Source of the DNA: Candidatus Kaiserbacteria bacterium | GTDB taxonomy: Bacteria > Patescibacteriota > Minisyncoccia > Phycocordibacterales > Phycocordibacteraceae | DNA: 64,000 bases | NCBI GenBank assembly: GCA_963699165.1 | Contig: OY969413.1 | Span: 340,562 to 404,561, forward strand | Reading direction: 5' to 3' | Shown here: positions 6,399-53,191 of the stretch, piece by piece | Position numbering within the stretch: position 1 is the first letter of the stretch | How the letters are laid out: the number at the start of each line of letters is the position of its first letter | Made by a program: the position numbers and the translations under genes | Notes under the pieces: generated by a model | Seen by the model: the letters and a program-made list of their open reading frames with translations, nothing else | The model's database searches: none | Told to the model about the DNA's origin: nothing

Positions 6399-6452
6399 CC
6401 CCCAAATTTCAGACCATGTTCTAGACGGGATTAACCGCTAGAATGACGTCAT

Positions 6453-6710
6453 ATGAAGCAATACCGCATCGCTCCTGAGGTGAAGGAACAAATCATTAAT
6501 CGAATCAAGAACGATGGTGTCACTGTCGCCCAAGCGGCCAAAGAGCATGGTATCCACGAGACCACCATCTATGGCTGGCTTGGTGCGAAAGTGCAAGACG
6601 GTACCGCATCTGTTCTTGAGATTGCGAGACTTCGAAAAGAGAATGACGAACTCCTTCGTCTTGTTGGACTCATGACGCTCAAGCTGTCTGAAACCCAAAA
6701 AAAGAAGTGA
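6453..6710 (+). CDS. IS3 transposase OrfA (HTH).
   Basis: 85-aa HTH protein. Slippery A AAA AAG just before its stop. Confidence 0.75.
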   Translation: MKQYRIAPEVKEQIINRIKNDGVTVAQAAKEHGIHETTIYGWLGAKVQDGTASVLEIARLRKENDELLRLVGLMTLKLSETQKKK

Positions 6711-13093: not shown

Positions 13094-15865
13094 TTATCGC
13101 GCGAGATAGCGTTCTCGAATCATGTTCTCGATTGTAGCACGGTCGCGGCCATAGGTAACGGATGACAAGAGGATAAGGTCGTCTATTTGCTCGGGATTTC
13201 CCGGCGGCAAATCCGGTGTGCGAATATCAAACGGTTTTTGCGGCATGCCGCCGGACAGAATTTTAACGTATGCGTTCCTGTTTTCAATATTGACGAAATC
13301 GGCCGTTTCGAAGACGGGGGCGAACTGTTTTGCAAAAAATTCCGCATCCTCTTCACCGACGCGAAACACTGCCATGTTGCCGACGTTGCCGAAAACGGCA
13401 TTGCGCGTTTTTTCTTCGATTTGATTCAAGAATTGGTGCGCAACAGCGAGCGACAGTTTGTATTTTCGCGCTTCGGAAAGAATTCCCGGAATGGTATCGG
13501 TCGTGACGTTTTGAAATTCATCGATATACAGATAAAACGGCGGGAACTGCGCGCGCGGATTGTCGGCGCGCGAAAGCGCAGCCATGAAAAGTTTGCCGAC
13601 GACAATGAGACCGAGTAGGTTTGCATTCCTTTCGCCGAGACGGCCTTTCGAAAGATTGATAAGCAAAATCTTTTTCGTATCCATCACTTCGCGAAATTTG
13701 AACGAAGATTCCTGTTGGCCCACAATCGGGCGAATGAAATCGTTCGCCGTAAAATCATCGAATTTGTTCGTGATATACGGCACAATGTTTTCGAGCGCGG
13801 CATCACCGCCCGCTTTTGTCGCTATCTCGGTCCAGAACTGGTTCACAATCGGATTCATGCTCTTTGCCAGCTTTTGTCTGCGGAATTCGCTGTTTGAAAG
13901 CACCCGCGCAATGTCGAGCATCGTTGAACCGCTCGACGGGTCTTCCATAACTAGCAACGTCGCATTTCTAAAATATTGTTCGAACGCCGGGCCCATGCTC
14001 TCCGGCACGTCGCCGTAGAGGCGATGGAAAATCGCGAGCAGCTCATTCACGATAAATGTTTTTTGTTCCGGGTGCGACAAATCGTACTCGAGGAAATTGA
14101 GACCGAGCGGCCGCGTGAGGTCGGCCGGGTCGAAATAAATCACATCGTTGTATCGCTCCGGTGGAACCGCCGCCAAAATGTCCAAAATATCCGAGCCGTG
14201 CGGATCGATAAAGCAACAGCCCTCGCCGTTTTGAATATCCTGAATAATCATCGACTTCATAAGTCCGGTTTTGCCGGTGCCGGTTTGACCGATGATATAG
14301 AGATGCCGCAGACGGTCTTCCGGATCGAGCCGCACTGACGTCTCCTCGCCGCGGTAGGTGTTTATGCCGAGCAGCGCGCCGGTTTGCGGAAGGGTCAGTG
14401 GCGCGGGCGCATGAGTAAAGCGCGCCTGCTTCAGGTGCGGCGACGAACCGATGCCGGACGGCGGGAAATGATACATCGTCGTCAATTCGCGAAGCGACAG
14501 CGGCAATTCGGAAGAATCCGGCAATCGAAAAGAAAATTGATCGAGGGCCTGCGCCGCGTCTCTGCCGCCCTGCCGCTTGAACTCGAGGCGGTTGCCCTGC
14601 GTATTCGTAAACTGATTGAATGCAGCTTCGAGCTCGCCGAGTATTTGTCCGGCCGCATGTTCGTTTTTTGATGACGCCACGAGCCGAACCGTTACACCGA
14701 CGATGGGCGCCGCCATCTTTTTCTCGACTTGCTCGATGTATGTTTTGTTTTCTTCGATTTGCCGCGTCTCCGCTTCCTTTGCCTTCTGCTCGTCTTTCGG
14801 CTTGCTCGAGAAAAATGTCTTGCCCACTTCAAGCGCGAGTTCGCCAATCAGGGTCTCGGGCGTGTTAAAGGCGGTTGAACGTTTCTCGCCTTTTCGAAGC
14901 GCCTGCAAAATTTTCCGATAATGCTTTACATGCCGGTCGCCGCGCGGCTCGATGATGAACTGCAGCGCCGCGCCTTCACCGACGTGCTGTATTTTTGCGA
15001 ACGCATTCGTAATCGCGTTCAGCGGGTCATAATCAAACTCGGTGTAGTCGGTGAGCGGAAGCGCCGGATTCGCGGCAAGATGCGCGACCGAGGCGAGCGC
15101 CGCGCCGCCCGGAGCGAAAATATTGTAATCGTACGGCTGCACCACGATGTGCGCATCCGGAAAAATAGCGAGCAGCTGTTTCTCGAAAAGATTGCGCTTC
15201 CCGTTCGGAACCGCGGCATAGAAACGAAGCTCCGGACTGTCGGCCGGCACGGCAAGCTCGACCGCGTAATAGTTCGGCTCGCCGGGGGTAGCGTCTTCGA
15301 CGGACATGAGGCCCGCATAAAACTGTTCCATGCCGGAAATGAGTTCTTTGAGTGTTTTTACGCGCGCATTTTGCTCGACGCCTTTCGGCGCGGGGAGCGC
15401 AATTTCGTACAGAGTCATTTTAAGCGCCTTAAAATGCGGCGCCTTCTCATCCACGCCCGGCACAAACAATCCGGTCGCAACATAGCGGACGAGATAGCGG
15501 TGAAAATCGTCGCCAAGCCGCGGATTGCGCAGCTTGTCCAATACCGCGAGCGCATTTTTGATTCCTTTTTCCTCCATCGTCTCCTGCAAACTTTTAATCG
15601 CGCTCTCATTGTCGCCAAGATTAAGTTGCCCCATGATTTCTTCGGCAGCCGCATTTATTTCATTTTTGTCGGAACGATACCCGTCCGACAAAATCGCTTC
15701 CGGCGCGGCGTGATGCTCGTGAATTTGCTCCGACACGATGCGCGTGCGCTCAAGCGCGCCGGGCGCTCGTCCGGTCTGCGCGATTTCCGCTTCTTTGCGC
15801 ATCACCTGCGAACGCAAATACGCGAGCTCCTCTTCGGGCGTAGACAACTTCGGGGACGATTCCAT
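13094..15865 (-). CDS. Large P-loop ATPase of the TraD/TraG/VirD4 coupling-protein type (or HerA-like), with a ~480-aa N-terminal domain of unknown function.
   Basis: Walker A HLYIIGQTGTGKTGLMKS, FIDPHGS, Walker B LYIDEFQNV, C-terminal TraG-D_C-like region. No TM helices detected. Confidence 0.55.
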   Translation of the reverse strand: MESSPKLSTPEEELAYLRSQVMRKEAEIAQTGRAPGALERTRIVSEQIHEHHAAPEAILSDGYRSDKNEINAAAEEIMGQLNLGDNESAIKSLQETMEEKGIKNALAVLDKLRNPRLGDDFHRYLVRYVATGLFVPGVDEKAPHFKALKMTLYEIALPAPKGVEQNARVKTLKELISGMEQFYAGLMSVEDATPGEPNYYAVELAVPADSPELRFYAAVPNGKRNLFEKQLLAIFPDAHIVVQPYDYNIFAPGGAALASVAHLAANPALPLTDYTEFDYDPLNAITNAFAKIQHVGEGAALQFIIEPRGDRHVKHYRKILQALRKGEKRSTAFNTPETLIGELALEVGKTFFSSKPKDEQKAKEAETRQIEENKTYIEQVEKKMAAPIVGVTVRLVASSKNEHAAGQILGELEAAFNQFTNTQGNRLEFKRQGGRDAAQALDQFSFRLPDSSELPLSLRELTTMYHFPPSGIGSSPHLKQARFTHAPAPLTLPQTGALLGINTYRGEETSVRLDPEDRLRHLYIIGQTGTGKTGLMKSMIIQDIQNGEGCCFIDPHGSDILDILAAVPPERYNDVIYFDPADLTRPLGLNFLEYDLSHPEQKTFIVNELLAIFHRLYGDVPESMGPAFEQYFRNATLLVMEDPSSGSTMLDIARVLSNSEFRRQKLAKSMNPIVNQFWTEIATKAGGDAALENIVPYITNKFDDFTANDFIRPIVGQQESSFKFREVMDTKKILLINLSKGRLGERNANLLGLIVVGKLFMAALSRADNPRAQFPPFYLYIDEFQNVTTDTIPGILSEARKYKLSLAVAHQFLNQIEEKTRNAVFGNVGNMAVFRVGEEDAEFFAKQFAPVFETADFVNIENRNAYVKILSGGMPQKPFDIRTPDLPPGNPEQIDDLILLSSVTYGRDRATIENMIRERYLAR

Positions 15866-18643: not shown

Positions 18644-19375
18644 CTACTTCAGAAGCGCGTCGATTGCCGTTTTGAAATTCGCATACGGATACGCGCCTGC
18701 AATCATCTGAGTCCCGATCACGAACGACGGCGTCGCCGAGATGCCGAAATTCGCCGCCTCGTTTTTGTCTGCGTTAATCGCAGTATCGTATGCCGTCTGA
18801 TTCGCAGCAACGGCTGCCTTCACTGCGCTCAAGCTGATTCCGCTTACCGAGCCCGTCACTTTGTTGACAAACGTGAGATTGTCGGCCGCGCTCAAACTGT
18901 TTTCCTGCGGTTCCTGACTGAAGAGCGCGGTGCGCCATGCGCCAAATTGTGCCGGATACAACGCCCACACCGCGCGCGCGTATTCGGCATCAACCATTGA
19001 ATCGGGTCCGAGGAACGGAAAATCCTTGAAAACGATTTTCACTTTACCTGCCGCAACATAGTCCTGAACGATTTGCGGCAGTGTCGTGATTTCGAATTCT
19101 TTGCAGAACGGACACTGATAGTCGGACCATTCTGCGATGGTGACCGGCGCACTTGCCTGGCCGATGAACGGATTTCCGTCCGTCTTCACGTCTTTGATAT
19201 TGACGGCGACGGTCGGCTGCGTGCCTTGCTGTGTGCCGCCCTGTGCCGCCGCGCCGGAACCCGACGAGTGCGAACCGTTCCAAAGCACGGCGCCCGCTAT
19301 AAAAAGACAGCCGACGACGACTGCGATTGGTAAAAATTTGCCATTGCTTGAATCTGATGTTGTTTCGGTTGTCAT
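18644..19375 (-). CDS. DsbA-family thiol:disulfide oxidoreductase (membrane-anchored).
   Basis: CPFC active site and thioredoxin fold. Start set at MTTETTSD; the 435-aa ORF extension upstream runs antisense to the NUDIX gene. Confidence 0.8.
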   Translation of the reverse strand: MTTETTSDSSNGKFLPIAVVVGCLFIAGAVLWNGSHSSGSGAAAQGGTQQGTQPTVAVNIKDVKTDGNPFIGQASAPVTIAEWSDYQCPFCKEFEITTLPQIVQDYVAAGKVKIVFKDFPFLGPDSMVDAEYARAVWALYPAQFGAWRTALFSQEPQENSLSAADNLTFVNKVTGSVSGISLSAVKAAVAANQTAYDTAINADKNEAANFGISATPSFVIGTQMIAGAYPYANFKTAIDALLK

Positions 19376-19939
19376 ATGCGGGAAATGATACCATATACTC
19401 GGGACGTACAAGGGGGACATCGCATGAAAAAGGCAACATTGGCACTGATTATTCGCATGACAGGCGGGATTCTGGAAATCCTGCTCGGACTGAAGCGCGG
19501 CGGTCCGGAAATCGGCGAGGGTATGTATAACGGCCCGGGAGGAAAGCTGAATGAGGGAGAAACCCTGCCCGATTGCCTCGCGCGCGAAGTGGAAGAAGAA
19601 GTGGGCATTCGGCTCGACGCGTCGAAAGCGGTGAAAGTCGCAATCATCACTTTTCATCGGGAAGAAAAGGATTTCGAGGTTCACATATACCGCGTCGACG
19701 TCTCTGAAGGAGAGCCGCGCGAGACCGATAGCATGATTCCCCGCTGGTTTCCCGTCGACAAGATCCCGTGGGATCGCATGCACGCTTCCGATCGCGCATG
19801 GATGCCCGGATTGCTCGCCGGCAAAAAGTTCAATGCGCATGTGTACTATCGCATCGAGCTCTATCACAAGGACGGGAAAGAGATCAAAAAAGAGAGATTT
19901 GACCGGATTGAAATCTTTCTGTTCGAGGACCACGAGTAA
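19376..19939 (+). CDS. NUDIX hydrolase.
   Basis: Nudix box GGKLNEGETLPDCLAREVEEEVGI. The start may instead be MKKATLAL at 19424. Confidence 0.8.
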   Translation: MREMIPYTRDVQGGHRMKKATLALIIRMTGGILEILLGLKRGGPEIGEGMYNGPGGKLNEGETLPDCLAREVEEEVGIRLDASKAVKVAIITFHREEKDFEVHIYRVDVSEGEPRETDSMIPRWFPVDKIPWDRMHASDRAWMPGLLAGKKFNAHVYYRIELYHKDGKEIKKERFDRIEIFLFEDHE

Positions 19940-19986
19940 GCGGCCGCGCAAAACGCGGCCGCTTAACTATTGCACCCGCACGGCAT

Positions 19987-23508: not shown

Positions 23509-24569
23509 GGCACCCAAACCCCTCAATTCGAACGACGGTTTTTTGCGCTCCTCTGAGCGCGTTGTTTCTTTTCCGCAGCATACGCCTCATCTGGCGTGAG
23601 TGAACCGAGCACATCCATGAAGCGGCGATTCATCTTTGCTTCGAGTTTCTGCACAAATCTTTTTGAATACTTTGAAATATCCGAGCTTTTCGGGATGTAC
23701 CGCCGCAAGTCCTTGTTCAGATTCTCGATTGATGGCTTCTCCCATGGCGCATGCACATGACAGAAATATATCTTCACCCCAAGCACCTTCTCTAGCCGTT
23801 TGTGTTCGAGAAAGAGAATATCGTTGTCGAATGTGATGGTCTGCATCTCGGGATACCGCTTTTTCATTCTGCGAAGCGCTCGCTCCACGTTTCGCACTGA
23901 CACTGGCAGGATCCGCTCCAGCAGGTTTTTGCGCACCCTGCGATCCCGCAGACCAAGAATGATGCCTTGACCGCTCTTGCCCGACACGATGAAGTCGCCC
24001 TCCATGTGACCCAATCCCCATCGCTTGTTGATTTTGCTCGGTCGTTTGTCGATCAGGCGCTTGTCGGCAATGTGTGGTTTCGATGGCCGAGAGCGTCGCC
24101 TCTTCTTGAATAACTTTGCTCGATGCGACTCGATCCGTCTGCCATACGGGCTCTTGATATATCGGCGTATAGCCGAGGATGAAGCATATCCGATATCCTT
24201 CTCGATCCGCTTCAATCGAAGTGAGATGTTTTCGGGCGACTGATCGTCGAAGAGATGCGCCTCGATGAACTTCCGGAGCTTCGGGTCGAGAGCAATCATC
24301 TTGCCGACCGCTCGGCTGTATTTCCTTCGTACGTATGAAATGTGATGCGCATATGCAGCATCATACGGCCGTCCCTTCCTCTTCTTTTGCGTCTCGTACC
24401 ATATGACACTCTTCGGTCGGTCGAGTGCATCTCCGACATCTTGCAAAGAGTATCCCTTCGCTAACAGTATCTGTATTTCGTCTCGTTCGGACCTTGTGAA
24501 GTGCGCACCGCCGGAGGTTTTTTCATTCGCTCAATGTATCAAACGTTCGAATTCAAAAGACTAGTCGCC
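23509..24569 (-). mobile_element. IS30-family insertion sequence, copy 2 (1061 bp), with no flanking target-site duplication.
   Basis: Collinear with copy 1 over the full 1061 bp with only a few substitutions. Flanks are cac / gag. Confidence 0.8.
23523..24446 (-). CDS. IS30-family transposase, copy 2.
   Basis: Differs from copy 1 by about three residues. Confidence 0.8.
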   Translation of the reverse strand: MQDVGDALDRPKSVIWYETQKKRKGRPYDAAYAHHISYVRRKYSRAVGKMIALDPKLRKFIEAHLFDDQSPENISLRLKRIEKDIGYASSSAIRRYIKSPYGRRIESHRAKLFKKRRRSRPSKPHIADKRLIDKRPSKINKRWGLGHMEGDFIVSGKSGQGIILGLRDRRVRKNLLERILPVSVRNVERALRRMKKRYPEMQTITFDNDILFLEHKRLEKVLGVKIYFCHVHAPWEKPSIENLNKDLRRYIPKSSDISKYSKRFVQKLEAKMNRRFMDVLGSLTPDEAYAAEKKQRAQRSAKNRRSN

Positions 24570-44221: not shown

Positions 44222-44280
44222 CTGCTCCGTCTCGAGATGTGTGTCCCGACTGATGAGCTCGAAAGAGCGAAACGGAATGA
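44222..44280 (+). ncRNA. Candidate type III hammerhead ribozyme.
   Basis: GUC cleavage triplet (44229-44231). Stem I ucgaga/ucccga with loop ugugug. Core CUGAUGA. Stem II gcuc-GAAA-gagc. GAAAC. Stem III ACGGA:UCCGU with the conserved A15.1-U16.1 pair. Confidence 0.5.
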
Positions 44281-44315: not shown

Positions 44316-44397
44316 GCCGGGATGGCGGAATTGGTAGACGCAACGGATTCAAAACCCGTCGACGCAAGTCATGAGAGTTCGATTCTCTCTCCCGGCA
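44316..44397 (+). tRNA. tRNA-Leu (anticodon CAA), class II.
   Basis: GCCGGGA acceptor, D-arm, anticodon loop TTCAAAA, long variable arm, GAGAG-TTCGATT-CTCTC T-arm, TCCCGGC-A. No encoded CCA. Confidence 0.85.
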
Positions 44398-45072
44398 CAA
44401 CAGCGAGCGAAGCGAGGCGTTGTGCCGAGAAGCACGGCATCTGCATGCCGTGCGCGAGAGAATCGAATGGCTCGGCCATGTCCGAGGATCTGCGAGGACG
44501 GCGAGCCGGGGTCGAGAGCGCTTAGCGAATTGCGAATGCCTGGAGCAATCCGCTTAGCGACTCGCGGCCGATTCTCTCTCCCGGCACAACAGCGAGCGAA
44601 GCGAGGCGTTGTGCCGAGAAGCACGGCATCTGCATGCCGTGCGCGAGAGAATCGAATGGCTCGGCCATGTCCGAGGATCTGCGAGGACGGCGAGCCGGGG
44701 TCGAGAGCGCTTAGCGAATTGCGAATGCCTGGAGCAATCCGCTTAGCGACTCGCGGCCGATTCTCTCTCCCGGCACAACAGCGAGCGAAGCGAGGCGTTG
44801 TGCCGAGAAGCACGGCATCTGCATGCCGTGCGCGAGAGAATCGAATGGCTCGGCCATGTCCGAGGATCTGCGAGGACGGCGAGCCGGGGTCGAGAGCGCT
44901 TAGCGAATTGCGAATGCCTGGAGCAATCCGCTTAGCGACTCGCGGCCGATTCTCTCTCCCGGCACAACAGCGAGCGAAGCGATGCGTTGTGCCGAGAAGC
45001 ACGGCATCTGCATGCCGTGCGCGAGAGAATCGAATGGCTCGGCCATGTCCGAGGATCTGCGAGGACGGCGAG
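44381..45072 (+). repeat. Tandem array of a 189-bp unit (3 identical copies plus a 4th variant). Each unit begins with the last 20 nt of tRNA-Leu.
   Basis: Unit starts at 44381, 44570, 44759 and 44948. Each unit contains hairpins ggcacaac..gttgtgcc and gcacggcat-ctgc-atgccgtgc. It also has an inverted copy of the T-arm segment (gagagaatcgaa). Confidence 0.9.
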
Positions 45073-45197
45073 AAGGGCTCCCGGTTTGTCCAAGAGCGAA
45101 GCGATTGGTATCAAACCGCAGTCCTGTGAGGAGCGGAGAGCGCTTAGCGAAATGCGAGTCGCCGAAGGGCGCGACGCATTTCGGTTAACGACTCATA

Positions 45198-45881: not shown

Positions 45882-46748
45882 ATGATACCATCCCGCCTGA
45901 TGGCTGCCAAAATACTTTGCATCGCCGGGCCAACTGCCTCGGGAAAATCCGTGCGCGGAATCGAGGAAGCGCTTTCGCGCTGCGGTGAAATCATCTCCGT
46001 CGACAGCCGCCAAGTGTATCGCGGGCTTGATATCGGCACTGAGAAACTTACCGCGGCAGAGATGCACGGCGTTCCGCATTATCTCATCGATATACGAAAT
46101 CCCGATGAACGATATTCAGCGGGAGATTTTGCGTCCGATGCAGCTCGATTGATTGGAGAAATATCAAGCCGAGGAAAACTGCCGATACTTGTAGGCGGGA
46201 CGCACTTTTATTTTGATGCATTGCTGCATGGATTGCCCGCAGCAGTCGACGCAAACCTGAAACTGCGCGATGCACTTGAAACATTGCCGACAGAGGAGCT
46301 TTACTCGCGCGTCCGCTCCGCGGACGCGCGACGGTCTGCCGAACTTGACCCGAAAAATCGCCGACGGCTCGTTCGCGCGCTTGAAATCGCCGCGGCAAAC
46401 GGAACGATTCCGGCGCGGACGAAGTCCGCGCCGGCCTATGAGTGCGAATGGATTGTCATCGACCCGCCGCGCGATGAACTGCGCGCGCGCATCGGCGCGC
46501 GGCTCGCGGGCGCCTTTGAGCGCGGATTGACTGCGGAGGTTGCGCGAATCCGCAACTCCGTTGCGGATTCGCGCTTAAATGAATTCGGCCTCGAATACAA
46601 AATCGTCGGCGAATATCTCCGCGGCGAGCGCACCGAGGAATCCCTCATGCCGGCGTTATCGGCAAAATTATGGCACTATGCCCGCCGCCAAAAAGCATGG
46701 CTGCGGAAACTACATGACGAAGGCACTATGGGAGCGACACTGCATTAG
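45882..46748 (+). CDS. miaA: tRNA dimethylallyltransferase.
   Basis: P-loop GPTASGKS and DSRQVYRGLDIGT motifs. Confidence 0.85.
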   Translation: MIPSRLMAAKILCIAGPTASGKSVRGIEEALSRCGEIISVDSRQVYRGLDIGTEKLTAAEMHGVPHYLIDIRNPDERYSAGDFASDAARLIGEISSRGKLPILVGGTHFYFDALLHGLPAAVDANLKLRDALETLPTEELYSRVRSADARRSAELDPKNRRRLVRALEIAAANGTIPARTKSAPAYECEWIVIDPPRDELRARIGARLAGAFERGLTAEVARIRNSVADSRLNEFGLEYKIVGEYLRGERTEESLMPALSAKLWHYARRQKAWLRKLHDEGTMGATLH

Positions 46749-47289
46749 GACAGAATGAGAGACCGAATTCTTCACCTGCTAATTGTGGATTTATGTCCGC
46801 GGTAGTCGTGACAGAAACATGCAATGTACACAGCACTGTATTTGATAGACCGGTCATCGAACGCAACGCATTCTCTGCCTTAAGTCGCGTTGCACCAAGC
46901 GGCTCGGCTTCAAGAATAATTTGAAACGATGAATCAGCAGGCGTGAATTGAATGCCGTATGGACTGCCTGTATTCGAGTTAACAATGTCATACACATTGC
47001 CAATCGGCAGGCCTGTTGGGATTGGAGTCACGCCGATAGTAAAGTCTTTCGAATATACAACCGCACCAGCTGTGGTTGAAAGTGGTAACGCACCAGTACT
47101 CCCCGTAACGTTAGTAGGGGTGGATGTCGTCGCTGGTGTACCAAAGGGATTTTGGTTTTGATTTTGTCCTGATCCACTTCCAGAACCCGGGGAAGGACGC
47201 AGGTACTGGACAAACAGAAAACCTGCCCATGCTCCAAGTCCCACAAGAATGAGCGCCCCACAAACGATGATGCTGTTGCGAATGTTCAT
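46726..47289 (-). CDS. Membrane-anchored secreted protein, paralog of 48371-48919 (partner of hydrolase module 1).
   Basis: TM, G/S/T-rich linker and a C-terminal domain alignable to 48371-48919 (SPY.I...F.I.L...FC...LP). Confidence 0.5.
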   Translation of the reverse strand: MNIRNSIIVCGALILVGLGAWAGFLFVQYLRPSPGSGSGSGQNQNQNPFGTPATTSTPTNVTGSTGALPLSTTAGAVVYSKDFTIGVTPIPTGLPIGNVYDIVNSNTGSPYGIQFTPADSSFQIILEAEPLGATRLKAENALRSMTGLSNTVLCTLHVSVTTTADINPQLAGEEFGLSFCPNAVSLP

Positions 47290-48305
47290 GGTGAGGTTGA
47301 ATTAGTGAACAGTGTACCTCTATCGCACAAAAGAGCGAGCATTGATTTCTCCTCACCCGCGAATGAAAGACCGCATTCCCGTGCGGTTGACCACGCGCTC
47401 CAATTCCAGCTCGAGTTGTATGTTGCTACTGCCTCGGCAATGTTGTTGCTAGCAATCTCTGCCGCAGCAACGCACTGAGCGTACAAAGATTCATTTATTA
47501 CTCTTGCGCCGTAGTCGGTTCCCGAGAAAGCGCTCGGGCAATTGAGTCCTGCCATGGAATGCACCGTAAGATTAATTTGAAATAGCCCCCATGAGAAAAC
47601 ACGGCCGTCATAACTCATTTTGTCGGTCGCACTCGCCTTGTCAGTCACACCGCCGCTCTCAGCCGTGCAGATTTCCGCAGCTTGAGAAGAAGCGTTCCCA
47701 AATGCGCTGAGGTTTGAAGGGCTGCAAGGACCGGATGTTGGTACGGTACACGAACCCGCTCCGCCTCCGCCGCCAGTTGTCGTGACGGGCGTCGTCGGCG
47801 TACTTCCCGTAATCGAACCCACATAGCCCGAACCTTCTTTGAACTGACCGAGAGAACCTTCTTGAATGAGGCATGGATTAATACCCCCCGACGTAATGAG
47901 TGACGACCAGGTACCCCACGTGGAGTCGCTTGGATGATAGAGCACTGCCATAACGGCATCCACGATGAGCCAACCCGCAAGAGCTACAACAATGCCGATG
48001 ACGATATTGAGCAATATTTTTCTCGCCGTACTTTGCGCGCCCGGATTAAACGGATTGACTACGAGCAGAAAGCCCGCATACGCAATCATGATGGGCGCCA
48101 CGAAGACGACGGCGATGGTGATAAGGAAACTGATGAGGTTATTGATGACGTCGATGACCATGCCCCAGCTTGCGGGGCAGAGATTGATGGCCGAGGGAAT
48201 GATGGGGTCGAAAAACGGTATTGCGGCGTGGGTTGCCGAAGGCAGCGCGAAAGTACCGGCGAGCGCCGAAACGAGAAGGAGTGCGGAGCGAAATCGCATA
48301 TTCAT
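47286..48305 (-). CDS. Membrane-anchored protein with a TrbC/VirB2-pilin-like N-terminal module (signal peptide plus two TM helices) and a C-terminal lytic-transglycosylase-like domain.
   Basis: N-terminal ~175 aa nearly identical to paralog 48927-49862. C-terminus has ESGG...GLFQIN...YNSS, resembling the SLT catalytic motifs. Confidence 0.5.
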   Translation of the reverse strand: MNMRFRSALLLVSALAGTFALPSATHAAIPFFDPIIPSAINLCPASWGMVIDVINNLISFLITIAVVFVAPIMIAYAGFLLVVNPFNPGAQSTARKILLNIVIGIVVALAGWLIVDAVMAVLYHPSDSTWGTWSSLITSGGINPCLIQEGSLGQFKEGSGYVGSITGSTPTTPVTTTGGGGGAGSCTVPTSGPCSPSNLSAFGNASSQAAEICTAESGGVTDKASATDKMSYDGRVFSWGLFQINLTVHSMAGLNCPSAFSGTDYGARVINESLYAQCVAAAEIASNNIAEAVATYNSSWNWSAWSTARECGLSFAGEEKSMLALLCDRGTLFTNSTSP

Positions 48306-48370
48306 ATCATACCGCCGCACGCAGCGAACGGACGCGGCTTTCCCCACCGAACACTCGTCTGCGCGGTGCA

Positions 48371-48919
48371 TCACGGAAGCGCGGTTGCTCCACGACAAAA
48401 GCTGAATTTCAAATTCGTATGCAAATAAGCGTCCGCAACGCCGGGCATCGTCACTACAAACGCATCAAGCCGGCACATGTCTTGCGCGGAAATGCCCAGT
48501 TTCTGCTCGAGTTCTTGCTGCGCCTGTAAACGGTATTGATCGACGGGATTCTTATACAACAGGATATAGAACGTCTGCGTATCGCCGTCGTATCCGATTT
48601 GGTATGGTGAGCCGGTCTGCGACGGGTCTAGTCCGCCCGAAAGTGCGTAATACGTCTCGTCCCCTTCGTCTTTGGCGACCGAGGAGTCGCTCAAAAAATT
48701 GCGTGTCGGAATTATTTTGCCGTCGGTACTCGGTACCGAAAATGCGTACGCGCTTGTTGTAGTCGCGACGACGGTGTTTTGCGCAATCGGCAATGTCGTC
48801 GTTGTTGTCGACGTCGGCACGAATGCCAGTTGTCTTTGCGATTCAAATATGCGAACCGCAATGAAAAAACTGCCGAGCAGAAGAAGCATTGCACCGAATA
48901 TCCATGCTGCTGTTTTCAT
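48371..48919 (-). CDS. Membrane-anchored secreted protein (partner of hydrolase module 2).
   Basis: TM, poly-Thr linker, C-terminal domain homologous to 46726-47289. Confidence 0.5.
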   Translation of the reverse strand: MKTAAWIFGAMLLLLGSFFIAVRIFESQRQLAFVPTSTTTTTLPIAQNTVVATTTSAYAFSVPSTDGKIIPTRNFLSDSSVAKDEGDETYYALSGGLDPSQTGSPYQIGYDGDTQTFYILLYKNPVDQYRLQAQQELEQKLGISAQDMCRLDAFVVTMPGVADAYLHTNLKFSFCRGATALP

Positions 48920-48926
48920 ATATGTA

Positions 48927-49862
48927 TCAATTACAACCGCACGATGCGCCGACGCTGACGTGCAAGTGGTCTGCCTCGGGACCTTGCCATGTCGAGCCGC
49001 AAGCGGTTGCGGCGCTTTCTATTGCGGCATTTTGCGCTGACGTTCCCCACGCTATGTCCACGGCATACGACTTCCCGACGCAGCTTACTCCCCCGTAATG
49101 GCAAGAGTGAACGGTATGCGCGCAGCCGACCGATTGTCCGCCCACGTCACACTCTTGAAATGTTTTCAAATGCTCCGGTGTAATCACGTGATCGGAAATC
49201 GACGTGACATCGAACCCCGTCTTCGTTCCCATGCATTGGATGAGTTGAGACAGGAGCGGAGAAGCGTCGCCCATTTCCGCTTGCGCATCCGGTTCGTAGG
49301 TAACCGATCCGCCGAGTGTCAATGTCGAGCCGCCCGTTGTAGTCGTTTCAACGGGATTGCTCCCAGAAATCGAGCCCACATACCCATTGCCTTCGTTCAA
49401 CTGATACAGCGAACCGGCCTGTGGCAAGCACGGAGGAATCCCGCCCGACGTAATGAGTGACGACCAGGTACCCCACGTGGAGTCGCTTGGATGATAAAGC
49501 ACTGCCATAACGGCATCCACGATGAGCCAACCCGCAAGAGCTACAACAATGCCGATGACGATATTGAGCAATATTTTTCTCGCCGTACTTTGCGCGCCCG
49601 GATTAAACGGATTGACTACGAGCAGAAAGCCCGCATACGCAATCATGATGGGCGCCACGAAGACGACGGCGATGGTGATAAGGAAACTGATGATGTTATT
49701 GATGACGTCGATGACCATGCCCCAGCTTGCGGGGCAGAGATTGATGGCCGAGGGAATGATGGGGTCGAAAAACGGTATTGCGGCGTGGGTTGCCGAAGGC
49801 AGCGCGAAAGTACCGGCGAGCGCCGAAACGAGAAGGAGTGCGGAGCGAAATCGCATATTCAT
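48927..49862 (-). CDS. Paralog with the same VirB2-like N-terminal module. It has a different, Cys/His-rich C-terminal domain, possibly a zinc D,D-peptidase.
   Basis: N-terminal region ~98% nt-identical to 47880-48340. C-terminus has SISDHVITPEHL...CAHTVHSCH (H-x6-D...H-x-H type). Confidence 0.45.
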   Translation of the reverse strand: MNMRFRSALLLVSALAGTFALPSATHAAIPFFDPIIPSAINLCPASWGMVIDVINNIISFLITIAVVFVAPIMIAYAGFLLVVNPFNPGAQSTARKILLNIVIGIVVALAGWLIVDAVMAVLYHPSDSTWGTWSSLITSGGIPPCLPQAGSLYQLNEGNGYVGSISGSNPVETTTTGGSTLTLGGSVTYEPDAQAEMGDASPLLSQLIQCMGTKTGFDVTSISDHVITPEHLKTFQECDVGGQSVGCAHTVHSCHYGGVSCVGKSYAVDIAWGTSAQNAAIESAATACGSTWQGPEADHLHVSVGASCGCN

Positions 49863-49976
49863 ATCATACCGCCGCACGCAGCGAACGGACGCGGCTTTCC
49901 CCACTGTCGTTCGTCTGATATCTTTTAGTCACGGCGCAACATCCTCCTCATCTTGCGCCTAATTTGGCATCGATTC

Positions 49977-50047
49977 GGGCCTATAGTTTAGAGGTAAAAC
50001 AGTGGTCTCCAAAACCACCGTCCCAGGTTCGAGTCCTGGTGGGCCCG
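49977..50047 (+). tRNA. tRNA-Trp (anticodon CCA).
   Basis: GGGCCTA acceptor, anticodon loop CTCCAAA, T-arm CCAGG-TTCGAGT-CCTGG, TGGGCCC-G. Confidence 0.85.
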
Positions 50048-50093
50048 CAAATCAAAAAACTGCCTTTAGGGCGGTTTTTTGATTTGCGGGCCC
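50041..50093 (+). terminator. Perfect 20-bp inverted repeat including the tRNA-Trp 3' end; likely bidirectional terminator.
   Basis: gggcccgcaaatcaaaaaac ... gttttttgatttgcgggccc. Confidence 0.6.
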
Positions 50094-50228
50094 AAGCACG
50101 CGCGGGGCGCGTGCGTCCAGAACTCGAAAACCTTGCGAGCATATTTTGCGATTTCCTGAAGCAAAATATCCGCAAGGTGTACTGACCCTGTAAGGGCCGA
50201 GAAGCGTAATCGCGGTCCTGGTGTCCCG

Positions 50229-50270
50229 CCAACAAGAAAAACCTGGACTGCTCCAGGTTTTTCTTGTTGG
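50229..50270 (+). terminator. Perfect 19-bp palindromic hairpin with A/T runs (bidirectional terminator-like).
   Basis: ccaacaagaaaaacctgga-ctgc-tccaggtttttcttgttgg. Confidence 0.6.
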
Positions 50271-50425
50271 CGAGTGCGGGAGATCTATCGAGCCAGCGGG
50301 CGACGCATCGTCGTGCTGTCGAGTGCGAGATGGCGAGGCGGGCTCCCGTTTTGTCCACGAGCGAAGCGATTGGTTTACAAACCGCAGTCCTTTAGGAGTC
50401 GCGAAAATTTTCGATCGACCCAAGA

Positions 50426-50470
50426 AGGTGATTCTGCTGAATCACCCAGATAGGTGATTCTGCTGAATCA
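50426..50470 (+). promoter_or_regulatory. Two tandem copies of a 19-bp site containing the palindrome TGATTC-TGCT-GAATCA. Candidate operator pair.
   Basis: aggtgattctgctgaatca at 50426-50444 and again at 50452-50470. Promoter (-35 TTGATA 50507-50512, 17 nt, -10 TATACA 50530-50535) follows. Confidence 0.5.
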
Positions 50471-50578
50471 GGCGAGGAAAGTATTTGTGAACGCAAAATA
50501 CAATCCTTGATATATTTCCCATTACAGTTTATACAAAAGCCAGGTACGGCTTTCGTCCGTACAGTTTGAGAGGTTTTT

Positions 50579-50863
50579 ATGTTCCGTAGTATCGCGCTCA
50601 AAGTCGCCACCGTTGACGGTGGAAGGCAAGTGTGCGCCATCGGACTTTCAGAACGGCAAATTAGCGAGCTGAAAGCGAGTCCACATCAACAGCTATTCCT
50701 GTCATTCGGCGACAACTCGTGCGGGGCCGAAATTTGGGTCGCGTTTGGACCGGGCGCAACGCCGGAAGGTTCTTGCCGAATCAGCGAACAAGCTGCTGCA
50801 GTGCTTAATCTCACGGCCGGCCTGAGCATCAGGGTATCAAATCCCTCGCTTCAATTCCTGTAA
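50579..50863 (+). CDS. Small protein (94 aa), possibly with AbrB/MazE-like swapped-hairpin DNA-binding repeats.
   Basis: RBS gagagg. LKVATVDGGRQVCAIGLSERQISEL and RISEQAAAVLNLTAGLSIRV resemble AbrB-type segments. Weak call. Confidence 0.4.
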   Translation: MFRSIALKVATVDGGRQVCAIGLSERQISELKASPHQQLFLSFGDNSCGAEIWVAFGPGATPEGSCRISEQAAAVLNLTAGLSIRVSNPSLQFL

Positions 50864-52141: not shown

Positions 52142-53191
52142 TTAATCGGCGCTGATTTTCTGATAGACCAGTTTGGATATTTGCGCAATGACGGCGTCGA
52201 GCGCCGTGGGATTTTTCCCTTCGGTCATTGCGCACAAAAAGTACGGACGCGGAGTGTAGTATACGATTCCGCAATCGCTCAATTCGACGTCATTGACGAC
52301 GTTATTCGAGCCGTCGACGTGTTCTCCGTACTTGTGCGCTACCGTAATGCCGCTCGGTATACCCGCCGCAAGTCCCTCCGTATACGTTGACTGGCTCAAG
52401 TCCTCGAGAATTTGCTCCGAATCCGCCCAATTCAAGCTAAGCGTCCCGTTGTACAAAATTCGAAAGAATCTCGAATATTCACGAGGCGAAATTTTGTATC
52501 CTACCGAACTCGTCGCACTCGGAGATGGTATGGAAAGATCGCCGTACACGGCATCGAGCACTTGCTGATTTATCGAGTTGAGCAGCGTGTAGACGGCGCC
52601 ATTATCCGAATCGGTCAGCTCCTTCTCGACTAGCGCGGGCACCGTGTACGATTGCCCTACCTGAAGATCCGACGGCAGTGCGAAAGCAAGCTGTGCATTT
52701 ATTTGCGCGAGCGCGGGTGTGTAGGTAAGCGGCGTTGAAAGAAACTCGGGCTGCTGTTCCGCCTGCCGATAGGCGGCAATCGCCACCACGACCTTCAGCA
52801 TGCTGGCCGGATCATACAAATCGTTCTCGTTTATTCCCTCCCACTTGCCGCTGTTGAGGTCGCGCAAATACACGGCATATCGCGTAACCGTGCCGGCAGG
52901 AAGAGCGGAAACCGACGATTGTATTTCGCTCCGCACATCCGGAAAACCGTTGCCGAATTGGTCGCCCGGAAGCGAAATGCCGATGATGGGATGCAGAAGT
53001 TTGTACGGAGAAGACGGCACGAAAATCGGATGCGCTAGCGCGAGAAGATTTTCATAATATATTTTCGTCGCGAAATACGTTCCGGTGCCGACCATAAGTA
53101 TGGCCGCAACCACTCCGCCCACAGCAAGCGCGAGCGTTCGGGCGAATCTGCCCGATTGTTTCCGCGAAATTTCGTCTTTACTCTTTGCCAC
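52142..53191 (-). CDS. Membrane-anchored class-A beta-lactamase-like serine hydrolase.
   Basis: SMLK (SxxK), SDN and K(Y)G motifs, N-terminal TM. Confidence 0.65.
   Translation of the reverse strand: MAKSKDEISRKQSGRFARTLALAVGGVVAAILMVGTGTYFATKIYYENLLALAHPIFVPSSPYKLLHPIIGISLPGDQFGNGFPDVRSEIQSSVSALPAGTVTRYAVYLRDLNSGKWEGINENDLYDPASMLKVVVAIAAYRQAEQQPEFLSTPLTYTPALAQINAQLAFALPSDLQVGQSYTVPALVEKELTDSDNGAVYTLLNSINQQVLDAVYGDLSIPSPSATSSVGYKISPREYSRFFRILYNGTLSLNWADSEQILEDLSQSTYTEGLAAGIPSGITVAHKYGEHVDGSNNVVNDVELSDCGIVYYTPRPYFLCAMTEGKNPTALDAVIAQISKLVYQKISAD

What the first reader, a model, noticed from the sequence alone, without database searches (positions are those of the whole stretch)
46726..49904. 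Duplicated two-gene modules: VirB2-pilin-like N-terminus fused to different peptidoglycan-hydrolase domains, each with a small partner protein
The genes at 48927-49862 and 47286-48305 share a near-identical N-terminal module. It has a signal peptide and two TM helices, in a TrbC/VirB2-like arrangement. The shared region (47880-48340 vs 49440-49900) is about 98% nt identical over ~460 bp, consistent with recent duplication or gene conversion. The C-termini differ. One has lytic-transglycosylase-like motifs (ESGG, GLFQIN, YNSS). The other is Cys/His-rich with a D,D-peptidase-like H-x6-D...H-x-H pattern. Each is followed by a homologous small membrane-anchored protein (48371-48919 and 46726-47289). 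This combinatorial layout of a shared delivery or anchor module, variable cell-wall-degrading domains and a cognate partner recalls polymorphic effector/immunity systems. It also recalls T4SS-associated VirB1/PrgK-type hydrolases. The locus lies between two tRNA genes.
Basis: partly seen in the sequence, partly recalled or inferred. Interest (0 to 1): 0.7.

Follow-up and report, generated by a model that had tools for sequence, protein, structure and literature searches.

The report
Pilin-anchored cell-wall hydrolases with swappable ends
In a tiny-genome (Patescibacteria/CPR) bacterium, two neighbouring genes fuse the same secretion-pilus-like membrane module to two different cell-wall-cutting enzymes, at a chromosomal spot where related species swap such enzyme ends (one class together with a small partner gene), which may show how these epibionts breach cell walls.

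Summary
Genes A (47286-48305, -) and B (48927-49862, -) share a 5' tract running from -43 to codon 139. It has 2 mismatches in 460 nt, then drops abruptly into synonymously saturated and then unrelated sequence. This is recent gene conversion, not duplication and not an assembly artefact: three other assemblies break at this repeat.

The shared module is a conserved subfamily of the Patescibacteria VirB2-like T4SS pilin (PF18895). A's C-terminus is an SLT_3 lysozyme-like domain with invariant E-S and GLFQIN. B's is probably a Hedgehog/DD-peptidase (LAS)-like zinc peptidase with H-x13-D rather than H-x6-D.

In 75 of 80 species representatives the locus has the same order: tRNA-Trp, pilin-hydrolase, (partner), miaA, peroxiredoxin, tRNA-Leu, parB. 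So the tRNAs mark core synteny, not an island. At this site the C-terminus switches among at least 7 hydrolase classes.

The partner tracks only the lysozyme-like class (39/41 and 66/70 loci). It co-diverges with that domain (rho about 0.7) but not with the module or miaA. pB next to B is therefore atypical, and pA and pB are not recent duplicates (31% identity).

I read this as pilin-anchored, VirB1-like cell-wall hydrolases with cassette-like ends. A T4SS or toxin role remains inferred.

The parts
48927..49862 (-). Gene B (311 aa): signal peptide, VirB2-like pilin module, low-complexity linker, and a Cys/His-rich Hedgehog/DD-peptidase (LAS)-like domain
   Evidence: ORF. PF18895 E 0.012 for the protein itself; NF045849 pilin-like conjugal transfer protein E 7e-4. 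AF2 model.
48930..49304 (-). C-terminal domain of B (aa 187-311). Invariant residues: C210, C247, H249, C254, H255, G257, G258, S265, D269, C288, H299, H301. E296 is nearly invariant. Putative zinc peptidoglycan peptidase.
   Evidence: Alignments. phmmer finds 272 representative clusters, with the domain at the C-terminal end in all but one of the 150 listed. PDB profile search: the top 15 hits are Hedgehog N-domains, E 0.037-0.14, and they align H255/D269/H299-H301 with Shh H141/D148/H181-H183. hhalign to the VanY-like class: 78.5%. One relative, P0254, combines this domain with PG_binding_1.
48371..48919 (-). Partner pB (182 aa): N-terminal TM anchor, Thr-rich linker and a conserved extracytoplasmic domain ending ...FSFCRGATALP. 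Sits atypically after a B-type gene and directly upstream of gene A.
   Evidence: Its closest partner relatives are in other genomes (44-47%), against 31% to pA.
47286..48305 (-). Gene A (339 aa): signal peptide, VirB2-like pilin module, Gly/Thr/Pro linker, SLT_3 lysozyme-like domain and a 27-aa tail
   Evidence: The public record's start (P0001, 361 aa) is probably too far upstream.
47370..47720 (-). Lysozyme-like (SLT_3/GH23-type) catalytic domain of A (aa ~196-312), with invariant E216-S217, D228, G240-L-F-Q243-I-N245 and four conserved Cys
   Evidence: Alignment A10. 23/26 homologues hit PF18896, best E 1e-8, and 3 hit PF01464 SLT. The best, non-significant PDB match is a c-type lysozyme aligned on GLFQIN.
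46726..47289 (-). Partner pA (187 aa), canonical partner of the lysozyme-like gene. Its ATG overlaps A's stop codon (ATGA).
47889..48348 (-). Gene-conversion tract, copy A: 43 nt of 5' leader with a TATGAT box, the signal peptide, and the pilin module to codon 139
   Evidence: 2 mismatches in 460 nt against copy B, with sharp boundaries.
49446..49905 (-). Gene-conversion tract, copy B
   Evidence: Independent assemblies break here.
49977..50048 (+). tRNA-Trp(CCA), the conserved upstream boundary of the locus
   Evidence: Found in the same position in all 48 related loci scanned.
45885..46748 (+). miaA (tRNA isopentenyltransferase), convergent; the conserved downstream boundary of the locus
   Evidence: Present in 75/80 related loci immediately after the pilin-hydrolase gene or its partner.

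Best explanation
The locus is a conserved but hypervariable core-genome site of Kaiserbacteria/Paceibacteria-type Patescibacteria. It encodes peptidoglycan hydrolases whose N-terminus is a strongly conserved VirB2-like T4SS-pilin module.

Shown:
- The module is a signal peptide plus a two-helix membrane hairpin of the PF18895 family.
- The catalytic domain follows it after a flexible linker.
- The window carries two such genes. B carries a probable Hedgehog/DD-peptidase-like zinc peptidase. A carries an SLT_3 lysozyme-like glycan-cleaving enzyme.
- Across species the same site carries at least 7 alternative hydrolase classes on the same module.
- The lysozyme-like class travels with a small membrane-anchored partner as one cassette.
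- The two modules in this genome were recently homogenised by gene conversion.

Inferred:
- After signal-peptide cleavage the hairpin sits N-out, loop-in, C-out, as in VirB2. This places the enzyme outside the membrane.
- The protein is either a membrane-tethered subunit or a minor subunit of the T4SS pilus.
- It cuts glycan strands (A) and stem peptides (B) locally. That would be a VirB1/PrgK-like wall-opening function, for the organism's own T4SS or pilus and/or against the host bacterium's wall.
- The partner is most likely a cognate inhibitor or modulator of the lysozyme-like domain that protects the producer's own wall.
- pB is either a second paralogue of this kind or an orphan left by a C-terminal replacement.
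For: Module identity:
- PF18895 is hit by 18/20 and 23/26 family members, best E 5e-11; 3 also hit TrbC PF04956.
- NF045849, the Mycoplasma ICE pilin-like protein, matches at E about 1e-3.
- The AF2 hairpin has pLDDT about 80.
- Mean module identity between species is 60%. That is lower than flanking MiaA (72%) but well above the ~25% average reported for CPR pilin arrays (PMC12102498).

Hydrolase identity:
- for A; for B.
- Sister classes on the same module include VanY-like (PF02557, E 3e-5), SLT (PF01464) and CHAP (PF05257).

Synteny and switching:
- 75/80 loci share tRNA-Trp | gene | miaA | prx | tRNA-Leu | parB.
- Seven C-terminal clusters occur at this site.
- The nearest neighbour by MiaA shares the C-terminal class in only 33/69 cases, against 22.5 expected by chance.

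Cassette:
- The partner follows 39/41 lysozyme-like genes and none of the 35 other genes outside this window.
- From the partner side, 66/70 have a lysozyme-like gene upstream.
- Divergence of the C-terminal domain versus the partner gives Spearman 0.68-0.70, with 0/1000 permutations reaching this.
- Against the module the values are 0.07 and 0.11; against MiaA, 0.14 and 0.09.
- The A stop codon and pA start codon overlap.

Gene conversion.

Peptidase-plus-glycosidase tandems recur:
- P0122 and P0123, B's closest relatives, sit immediately upstream of a pilin-SLT/SLT_3 gene beside miaA or the partner.
- 12 metagenome loci have at least 2 module genes.

Literature gap: most Patescibacteria with VirB2 homologues lack a recognisable VirB1 (PMC12102498).
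Against: - No T4SS gene is adjacent, here or in the 75 syntenic loci. The only T4SS-like gene in the window, a VirD4/TraD-like ATPase at 13094-15865, is 31 kb away.
- The window's own proteins score below Pfam thresholds: PF18895 16 bits against 26.6, and PF18896 13 bits against 27.
- B's assignment rests on marginal E-values (0.04) and motif alignment. Its AF2 model was poor (pLDDT 56) and both fold searches were uninformative.
- The canonical H-x6-D spacing is not met.
- The partner has no recognisable fold relative, so the inhibitor role is inference from linkage and co-divergence.
- Pilus incorporation of a subunit carrying a 170-190 aa C-terminal extension has no precedent that I could cite.
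Confidence: 0.55

Rival explanations
1. Polymorphic toxin/immunity system. The pilin-like module is a delivery or export handle. The C-terminal hydrolases are antibacterial effectors exported, possibly by the T4SS, to lyse host or competitor cells. The partner is the cognate immunity protein. Tandem copies and extra partners are displaced or orphan cassettes.
For: - A constant N-terminus carries at least 7 variable C-termini at one locus.
- The C-terminal domain and partner co-diverge as a unit, independent of backbone.
- A and pA are translationally coupled.
- The partner evolves fast: 25-45% identity.
- Arrays exist with two tandem partner genes (L094, L101) and with extra module genes.
- pB is mismatched with B, like an orphan immunity gene.
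- The 5' homology tract is the kind of substrate that drives C-terminal replacement in Rhs/CDI-type systems. This point rests on my own knowledge of those systems, not on a test here.
Against: - Five of the six larger classes have no downstream partner at all, in 34 loci; the gene abuts convergent miaA. These classes include peptidases that should be as dangerous to the producer.
- The handle is an integral-membrane hairpin, not a soluble secretion domain, and no release or cleavage site is evident.
- It is a single conserved core-genome locus, not on a mobile element.
- No T4SS, T6SS or T7SS genes are adjacent.
Confidence: 0.25
2. Housekeeping autolysins. The two-helix hairpin is merely a membrane anchor that happens to descend from a pilin. 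The enzymes remodel the cell's own wall (growth, division, daughter-cell separation). The partner is a regulator, as with other controlled autolysins. There is no link to T4SS or to the host.
For: - The position is core-genome and syntenic, near parB, in 75/80 species, usually as a single copy.
- T4SS genes are not adjacent.
- Reduced genomes have few other peptidoglycan hydrolases. This is general knowledge and was not tested here.
Against: - Related species carry chemically different enzymes (muramidase/LT, DD-peptidase-like, VanY-like, CHAP) at the same site, with little phylogenetic signal. That is unusual for a dedicated housekeeping step.
- The module is conserved (60%) well beyond what I would expect of a plain TM anchor. 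It keeps pilin-family features and a conserved mature N-terminus, IPFFGPI(I/V)P.
- The C-terminal domain and partner behave as a horizontally exchanged cassette.
Confidence: 0.19
3. Assembly artefact. The near-identical N-terminal regions result from mis-assembly or collapsed/duplicated reads.
For: None beyond the high identity itself.
Against: - The copies differ at 2 positions and have different flanks on both sides.
- Three other assemblies end or start inside the repeat exactly as expected for a genuine two-copy repeat.
- Tandem module genes recur in other genomes.
Confidence: 0.01

Closest known systems
VirB2-like pilins and pilin arrays of Patescibacteria T4SS (PF18895; Quinonero-Coronel et al. 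2025, PMC12102498; Wang et al. 2023, PMC10633639)
   Same: Same Pfam family. Same signal peptide plus two-helix hairpin. Same phylum. [quoted passage not shown]
   Different: - The described pilins are short, and the reported arrays are highly divergent (mean 25%, maximum 54% identity). Many lie near virB4.
- Here the module is 60% conserved across species and 99.6% identical (nt) within the genome.
- It carries a 170-190 aa hydrolase domain.
- It sits at a miaA/parB-linked site away from virB4.
- I found no mention of hydrolase fusions in the papers read.
VirB1 / PrgK (pCF10) / TraG (pIP501) T4SS-associated peptidoglycan hydrolases
   Same: Membrane-anchored, extracytoplasmic SLT-type and peptidase-type (CHAP/LytM) domains that open the wall for a monoderm T4SS. 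Glycosidase and peptidase activities are combined. This description is as summarised in PMC12102498.
   Different: - The two activities are on separate genes, not one multidomain protein.
- The anchor is a pilin-like hairpin rather than a single TM helix.
- The genes are not in a T4SS operon.
- The enzyme class is exchangeable between species.
Hedgehog/DD-peptidase (LAS, MEROPS M15-type) zinc peptidases, including bacterial Hh-like proteins (Roelink 2018, PMC6027127)
   Same: B's domain aligns S-x-H-Y-x-G...A-V-D and E...H-x-H with Shh H141/D148/E177/H181-H183. [quoted passage not shown]
   Different: - A 7-residue Cys-containing insertion gives H-x13-D instead of H-x6-D.
- There are seven conserved Cys.
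- No Pfam model detects it.
- Similarity is marginal (E about 0.04).
Polymorphic toxin systems with C-terminal replacement (CdiA-CT/CdiI, Rhs-CT/RhsI)
   Same: Conserved N-terminal region, variable C-terminal domain, and a downstream small gene that co-varies with the C-terminus. Tandem or orphan copies occur. A homology tract is suited to recombination.
   Different: - Only one of the seven C-terminal classes has the partner.
- The N-terminus is a small membrane hairpin.
- No dedicated secretion genes are adjacent.
- All cargo domains are cell-wall hydrolases.

Membership tests
VirB2/TrbC-type T4SS pilin (Pfam PF18895 T4SS_pilin, PF04956 TrbC) | The protein's own sequence reaches the curated profile threshold | tested here: not met
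   PF18895 scores 16.1 bits, E 0.012, against a cutoff of 26.6 for both A and B. The module alone scores 18.7 bits.
VirB2/TrbC-type T4SS pilin (Pfam PF18895 T4SS_pilin, PF04956 TrbC) | Family-level homology: close homologues match the profile | tested here: met
   18/20 module homologues and 23/26 full-length homologues hit PF18895 at E<=0.01, best 5e-11; 3 hit PF04956. NCBI names several relatives 'pilin'.
VirB2/TrbC-type T4SS pilin (Pfam PF18895 T4SS_pilin, PF04956 TrbC) | Cleavable signal peptide followed by two hydrophobic helices joined by a short basic loop | tested here: met
   Sequence: MNMRF...ATHA|AIPFF, then TM1, then the loop NPFNPGAQSTARK, then TM2. The AF2 model has helices at 4-26, 47-83 and 88-123, with pLDDT about 80 for the hairpin. 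Cleavage itself was not tested.
VirB2/TrbC-type T4SS pilin (Pfam PF18895 T4SS_pilin, PF04956 TrbC) | Small protein with no appended globular domain | tested here: not met
   A 170-190 aa linker plus catalytic domain follows the hairpin.
VirB2/TrbC-type T4SS pilin (Pfam PF18895 T4SS_pilin, PF04956 TrbC) | Encoded with virB4 and other T4SS genes | tested here: not met
   None within the conserved tRNA-Trp...parB neighbourhood in 75 loci. The only T4SS-like gene in the window is a VirD4/TraD-like ATPase 31 kb away. The rest of the 993-kb genome could not be read.
VirB2/TrbC-type T4SS pilin (Pfam PF18895 T4SS_pilin, PF04956 TrbC) | Polymerises into, or is required for, a T4SS pilus | not testable with these tools
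   Needs microscopy or genetics.
Lysozyme-like / lytic transglycosylase superfamily (Pfam PF18896 SLT_3, PF01464 SLT) - gene A | Profile match | tested here: inconclusive
   A's own sequence gives E 0.12, 13.3 bits against a cutoff of 27. However, 23/26 homologues at 41-52% identity hit PF18896 (best 1.2e-8) and 3 hit PF01464.
Lysozyme-like / lytic transglycosylase superfamily (Pfam PF18896 SLT_3, PF01464 SLT) - gene A | Catalytic Glu in an E-S motif, and the G-L-x-Q-I/V substrate-binding motif | tested here: met
   E216, S217, G240, L241, Q243, I244 and N245 are invariant in 26 sequences. GLFQIN aligns with the same motif of a c-type lysozyme, 1iiz.
Lysozyme-like / lytic transglycosylase superfamily (Pfam PF18896 SLT_3, PF01464 SLT) - gene A | Lysozyme fold; muramidase or lytic transglycosylase activity | not tested
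Activity needs experiment.
LAS / Hedgehog-DD-peptidase zinc peptidases (M15-type) - gene B | H-x6-D zinc-ligand motif | tested here: not met
   The conserved pair is H255...D269 (H-x13-D). When aligned to Shh SLH141YEGRAVD148, a 7-residue insertion is required. The motif definition is from PMC6027127.
LAS / Hedgehog-DD-peptidase zinc peptidases (M15-type) - gene B | H-x-H motif with an upstream catalytic Glu | tested here: met
   H299 and H301 are invariant and E296 is at least 90% conserved in 40 diverse members. They align with Shh H181/H183, and E296 lies one residue offset from E177.
LAS / Hedgehog-DD-peptidase zinc peptidases (M15-type) - gene B | Significant profile or fold similarity to a family member | tested here: inconclusive
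   - hmmsearch of the 40-sequence profile against PDB: the top 15 hits are all Hedgehog N-domains, but E is 0.037-0.14.
- hhalign against the VanY-like sister class: 78.5%, E 1.7e-5.
- No Pfam hit in 40 members.
Polymorphic toxin / immunity systems | Conserved N-terminal region with alternative, unrelated C-terminal domains at one locus | tested here: met
   Seven C-terminal clusters sit on one module at a syntenic site. The module-versus-C-terminus divergence correlation is 0.07.
Polymorphic toxin / immunity systems | A cognate small gene immediately downstream of every toxin type | tested here: not met
   Present after 39/41 lysozyme-like genes. Absent after all 35 genes of the six other classes outside this window.
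Polymorphic toxin / immunity systems | C-terminal domain and downstream gene inherited and co-diverging as one cassette | tested here: met
   Spearman 0.68-0.70, with 0/1000 permutations reaching it. There is no correlation with the module or MiaA.
Polymorphic toxin / immunity systems | Toxicity to target cells, and neutralisation by the downstream protein | not testable with these tools
   Needs expression or co-culture experiments, or at least complex prediction, which was not available.
VirB1/PrgK/TraG-type T4SS wall hydrolases | Membrane-anchored extracytoplasmic SLT-, CHAP- or metallopeptidase-type domain | tested here: met
   Classes on the module include SLT_3, SLT, CHAP, VanY-like and Hh/DD-peptidase-like.
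VirB1/PrgK/TraG-type T4SS wall hydrolases | Encoded in, and required for, a T4SS | tested here: not met
   Not in a T4SS cluster. The requirement itself is not testable here.

The most novel reading that the evidence does not exclude
Kaiserbacteria-type CPR bacteria display exchangeable cell-wall-degrading enzymes on VirB2-like pilin subunits. The T4SS pilus, or the membrane at the contact site, would then act as an enzymatic drill against the host bacterium's wall. On this reading the family supplies the 'missing VirB1' of Patescibacteria T4SSs. The conserved pilin module also serves as the recombination handle by which enzyme cassettes are swapped between lineages to match host wall chemistry; for the lysozyme-like class the cassette includes its self-protecting partner. 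Gene conversion keeps co-resident modules identical so that both enzymes fit the same machine.
Probability: 0.25. Interest if true: 0.85.

Novelty: new variant of a known kind. Interest (0 to 1): 0.62.

Why it matters
- Patescibacteria are a large share of bacterial diversity and live attached to other microbes. Their T4SS and its unusual pilins are essential for epibiotic growth in the one species tested, yet what the system does is unknown (PMC10633639, PMC12857230).
- A widespread family joins the pilin module directly to peptidoglycan hydrolases. It has hundreds of members, and 80 species representatives were retrieved here. This gives a concrete, testable hypothesis for how these cells open a wall, either their own or the host's.
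- It may also explain why most of these genomes lack a recognisable VirB1.
- The syntenic locus carries interchangeable enzyme classes and one co-evolving partner family of unknown fold. It is a natural experiment in domain shuffling and a possible determinant of host range.
- The B-type domain extends the Hedgehog/DD-peptidase superfamily into CPR bacteria with a new spacing of the zinc motif.
- None of this was described in the papers I could search. The domain combination is, however, visible in database annotations, so the novelty lies in the interpretation and the evolutionary pattern, not in the existence of the genes.

Tried and rejected
- Direct sequence searches of each C-terminal domain against PDB gave only chance hits.
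- NCBIfam and PHROGs gave nothing for the C-terminal domains or the partners.
- The first shallow B-type profile (13 sequences) found nothing in PDB and gave only 15% hhalign probability to the VanY-like class. The deeper 40-sequence profile was needed.
- The class 1 domain (GYKVDL...HWDITV) looks LAS-like by motif. hhalign to B-type gave only 32% and PDB gave nothing, so it is left unassigned. The VanY-like class profile also found nothing in PDB.
- The promoter/terminator consensus scan found nothing above shuffle expectation.
- Ideas considered and rejected: a tRNA-flanked genomic island (the synteny is conserved); a recent whole-module tandem duplication (the partners are only 31% identical and the identity boundary is sharp); a holin-endolysin or phage origin (no PHROG hits and no phage genes nearby).

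Full report
**1. What is in the sequence**

Four co-oriented minus-strand ORFs fill 46726-49862:
- B: 48927-49862, 311 aa
- pB: 48371-48919, 182 aa
- A: 47286-48305, 339 aa
- pA: 46726-47289, 187 aa

The spacing is tight.
- B's stop and pB's start are 7 nt apart.
- A's stop overlaps pA's start (ATGA).
- pB and A are 65 nt apart.

A and B share 160 of their first 170 residues.

At nucleotide level the identity is block-like.
- From 43 nt upstream of the ATG to codon 139 (47889-48348 versus 49446-49905) there are 2 mismatches in 460 nt.
- From codon 140 to 170, 22 of 31 codons differ. Many differ at third positions while the amino acids stay similar.
- Beyond about codon 170 the genes are unrelated.

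pA and pB share 33% identity over their C-terminal 83 residues (E 9e-13). No other copy of any of the four proteins exists in the 64-kb window.

**2. The repeat is real and results from gene conversion**

An abrupt step from about 0.4% to saturated synonymous divergence is not what a recent whole-gene duplication leaves. It is what a recent conversion or recombination tract leaves on top of an older homology.

The partners support this. pA and pB are 31% identical over the domain, and each is closer (44-47%) to partners in other genomes than to the other.

Independent assemblies exclude an artefact.
- A 1,684-bp contig of another MAG equals window 49624-47941 (1 mismatch) and ends inside both copies.
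- Two Logan contigs are 100% identical to the window and begin at 47916, 27 nt inside copy A.

The converted tract includes a TATGAT box 6-11 nt upstream of the ATG. The same box appears as a conserved '...RYD/RYN' in over-extended homologue ORFs. Each gene may therefore carry its own promoter and a very short leader. This is inference only; the consensus scan was silent.

**3. Organism and neighbourhood**

The exact proteins come from a 993,452-bp contig in NCBI/ENA.

Homologues are annotated Minisyncoccota, Paceibacterota, Kaiserbacteria or Parcubacteria, so this is a Patescibacteria (CPR) genome.

A profile of the shared module retrieved 80 loci from GTDB species representatives. In 75 of them the gene order matches the window: tRNA-Trp, pilin-hydrolase gene, optional partner, convergent miaA, usually a peroxiredoxin, tRNA-Leu, parB. 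The two tRNAs are therefore core synteny, not island borders.

No T4SS gene lies in this neighbourhood. The window does hold a VirD4/TraD-like ATPase at 13094-15865 (DUF87 plus TraG-D_C) and a DsbA-like protein at 18644-19951. The latter fits with the Cys-rich exported domains.

**4. The shared module**

The window proteins hit PF18895 (T4SS_pilin) only below threshold (E 0.012). They hit the Mycoplasma ICE pilin-like family NF045849 at E about 1e-3.

At family level the assignment is solid. 18/20 and 23/26 homologues hit PF18895 (best 5e-11), and 3 hit TrbC/VirB2 PF04956.

The AF2 model shows a signal-peptide helix followed by a helical hairpin at 47-83/88-123, pLDDT about 80.

The mature N-terminus IPFFGPI(I/V)P is nearly invariant. 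So is one Cys before TM1 and one after TM2 (C43, C145).

Mean pairwise module identity between species is 60%, compared with 72% for flanking MiaA. CPR pilin arrays in the literature average 25% and reach at most 54% (PMC12102498). This is a distinct, strongly constrained subfamily, which argues for specific protein contacts rather than a generic anchor.

By analogy with VirB2, the C-terminus is predicted to be outside the membrane. This is inference.

**5. The two catalytic domains**

A:
- 23/26 homologues hit PF18896 SLT_3 (best 1.2e-8) and 3 hit SLT.
- E216-S217, D228, G240-L-F-Q-I-N245 and four Cys are invariant.
- This is a lysozyme-like glycan-cleaving domain. Whether it acts as a muramidase or a lytic transglycosylase is open.

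B:
- The word-indexed search found only 4 relatives.
- An exhaustive phmmer search found 272 representative clusters, with the domain at the C-terminal end in all but one of the 150 listed.
- Of the 147 top representatives examined, 115 carry the same module. Six of seven of the others with two TM helices that I scanned also matched PF18895 (E 2e-8 to 0.024). One combines the domain with PG_binding_1.
- In 40 diverse members C210, C247, H249, C254, H255, G257, G258, S265, D269, C288, H299 and H301 are invariant, and E296 is nearly so.
- That profile's 15 best PDB matches are all Hedgehog N-terminal domains (E 0.037-0.14). They align SCH255YGG...AVD269 with SLH141YEGRAVD148, and E296..H299-x-H301 with E177...H181-x-H183.
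- hhalign to a sister class that itself hits VanY (PF02557, E 3e-5) gives 78.5%.

I therefore read B as a divergent LAS-type zinc peptidoglycan peptidase with a 7-residue insertion (H-x13-D). I put this at about 0.7, because each score is marginal and the structure route failed.

**6. One module, many enzymes**

Clustering the C-terminal parts of the 80 loci plus the window gives seven classes.
- Lysozyme-like: 41
- 'GYKVDL...HWDITV': 14
- B-type: 7
- SLT (PF01464-like): 6
- VanY-like: 6
- Two small classes: 2 and 1

CHAP also occurs among database homologues.

The nearest neighbour by MiaA shares the C-terminal class in only 33/69 cases, against 22.5 expected by chance. Module and C-terminal divergence are uncorrelated (rho 0.07). 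The enzyme end has therefore been replaced repeatedly on a stable module at a stable site.

**7. The partner**

A partner HMM finds the gene immediately downstream of 39/41 lysozyme-like genes. It finds none downstream of the 35 genes of other classes outside this window; those abut convergent miaA.

A partner-seeded metagenome scan is an independent test. Of 70 partner genes with upstream sequence, 66 follow a lysozyme-like gene.

Partner divergence tracks the lysozyme-like domain (Spearman 0.68-0.70; 0/1000 permutations). It does not track the module (0.11) or MiaA (0.09). The lysozyme-like domain and its partner therefore move and evolve as one cassette.

In the window, pA is the canonical partner of A. 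pB, sitting after a B-type gene, is the only such case among the seven B-type loci.

Elsewhere two partner genes can follow one lysozyme-like gene (L094, L101). B-type genes also sit directly beside lysozyme-like genes without a partner between them (P0122, P0123/L082).

So pB is better seen as a second partner paralogue beside A, or as an orphan from a replaced cassette, than as 'B's partner'.

**8. How it most likely works**

Shown:
- exported, membrane-anchored hydrolase architectures
- class switching between species
- cassette behaviour of the lysozyme-like domain and its partner
- gene conversion between the two modules

Inferred:
- The pilin-like hairpin presents the enzyme on the outer face of the membrane or on a T4SS pilus.
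- A glycan-cutter (A) and a peptide-cutter (B) act together, as the SLT and CHAP domains of PrgK/TraG do in monoderm T4SSs.
- They open peptidoglycan locally.
- The partner restrains or guides the lysozyme-like enzyme.

This would fill the gap noted by Quinonero-Coronel et al., that most Patescibacteria with VirB2-like pilins lack VirB1. The missing genomic link to T4SS genes keeps my confidence at about 0.55.

The toxin/immunity rival (0.25) explains the cassette behaviour well. It does not explain why the other classes lack a partner.

The housekeeping-autolysin rival (0.19) explains the core position. It does not explain class switching or module conservation.

**9. Novelty**

VirB2-like pilins and their arrays in Patescibacteria are published. 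The Pfam models for both halves exist, and NCBI labels relatives 'pilin'.

The following appear in none of the papers I could search or read:
- the fusion family
- its syntenic hypervariable locus
- the partner family and its co-divergence with the lysozyme-like domain
- the Hh/DD-peptidase-like class
- the conversion-homogenised tandem

I rate it a new variant of known kinds, with interest 0.62.

Noticed in passing
window 44224-44278 (+): Type III hammerhead ribozyme-like match: Rfam RF00008, 42.4 bits, below the 48.5 gathering score, E 8e-7, full model length. It lies 38 nt upstream of tRNA-Leu(CAA).
   Followed up: no
window 44380-45072: A 189-nt unit is repeated 3.7 times at 99-100% identity, starting inside the 3' end of tRNA-Leu (44316-44398). 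The long ORFs on both strands here (44349-45002, 44371-45129) are repeat artefacts. The origin is unknown; an integration scar, a satellite, or an element related to the nearby hammerhead-like motif are possibilities.
   Followed up: partly
window 45064-45109 and 50329-50374: A 46-nt sequence, 89% identical between the two sites, lies downstream of tRNA-Leu (just after the 189-nt repeats) and about 280 nt downstream of tRNA-Trp. 50050-50580 has no convincing ORF and no Rfam hit.
   Followed up: no
window 13094-15865 (-): A 923-aa ATPase with DUF87/HerA and TraG-D_C domains, and weak VirD4/TraD coupling-protein matches. It is the only T4SS-like gene in the window and stands alone between tgt and a DedA-like gene.
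   Followed up: partly
window 1405-2328 (-) and 23523-24446 (-): Two 307-aa ORFs with near-identical N-termini (MHDVGDALDRPKSVIWYETQKKRKGRPYD...). They look like a repeated, possibly IS/transposase-like gene. A further HTH/transposase-like cluster lies at 5694-7519.
   Followed up: no
window 18644-19951 (-) and 52142-53191 (-): A DsbA/thioredoxin-like exported protein, relevant to the many conserved Cys in the hydrolase and partner ectodomains. Also a membrane-anchored class-A beta-lactamase/DD-carboxypeptidase-like protein two genes beyond tRNA-Trp.
   Followed up: no
window 48306-48398; public protein P0001: The public annotation of gene A (361 aa) starts upstream at an ATG that overlaps pB. 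Homology between the two copies begins only 43 nt before the MNMRF start, and homologues begin at MR(S/F)R. The shorter start (48305) is therefore more likely.
   Followed up: partly
L094 1649-4748; L101 2-2723; L029 5926-8444; L082 1413-3546: Other genomes hold arrays at this kind of locus.
- Lysozyme-like gene, two tandem partner genes, then a class 1 or B-type gene (L094, L101).
- Class 1 gene, then a lysozyme-like gene with partner (L029).
- B-type gene, then a lysozyme-like gene with partner (L082).
12 of 80 partner-seeded metagenome loci have at least 2 module genes.
   Followed up: partly
window 47289-47369 (tail of A) versus the C-termini of pA/pB: A-type hydrolases often carry a short tail after the catalytic domain (...CGLSF......VSLLP). 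It resembles the partner's invariant C-terminal ...GLSFCPxAxxLP. This may be chance or a shared docking or sorting peptide.
   Followed up: no
contig npamlLLC (JGI 3300045391): In the lineage of B's closest relative, the tandem pilin-hydrolase pair, miaA and parB are followed directly by type IV pilus genes (T2SSE/PilB-like and T2SSF/PilC-like).
   Followed up: no
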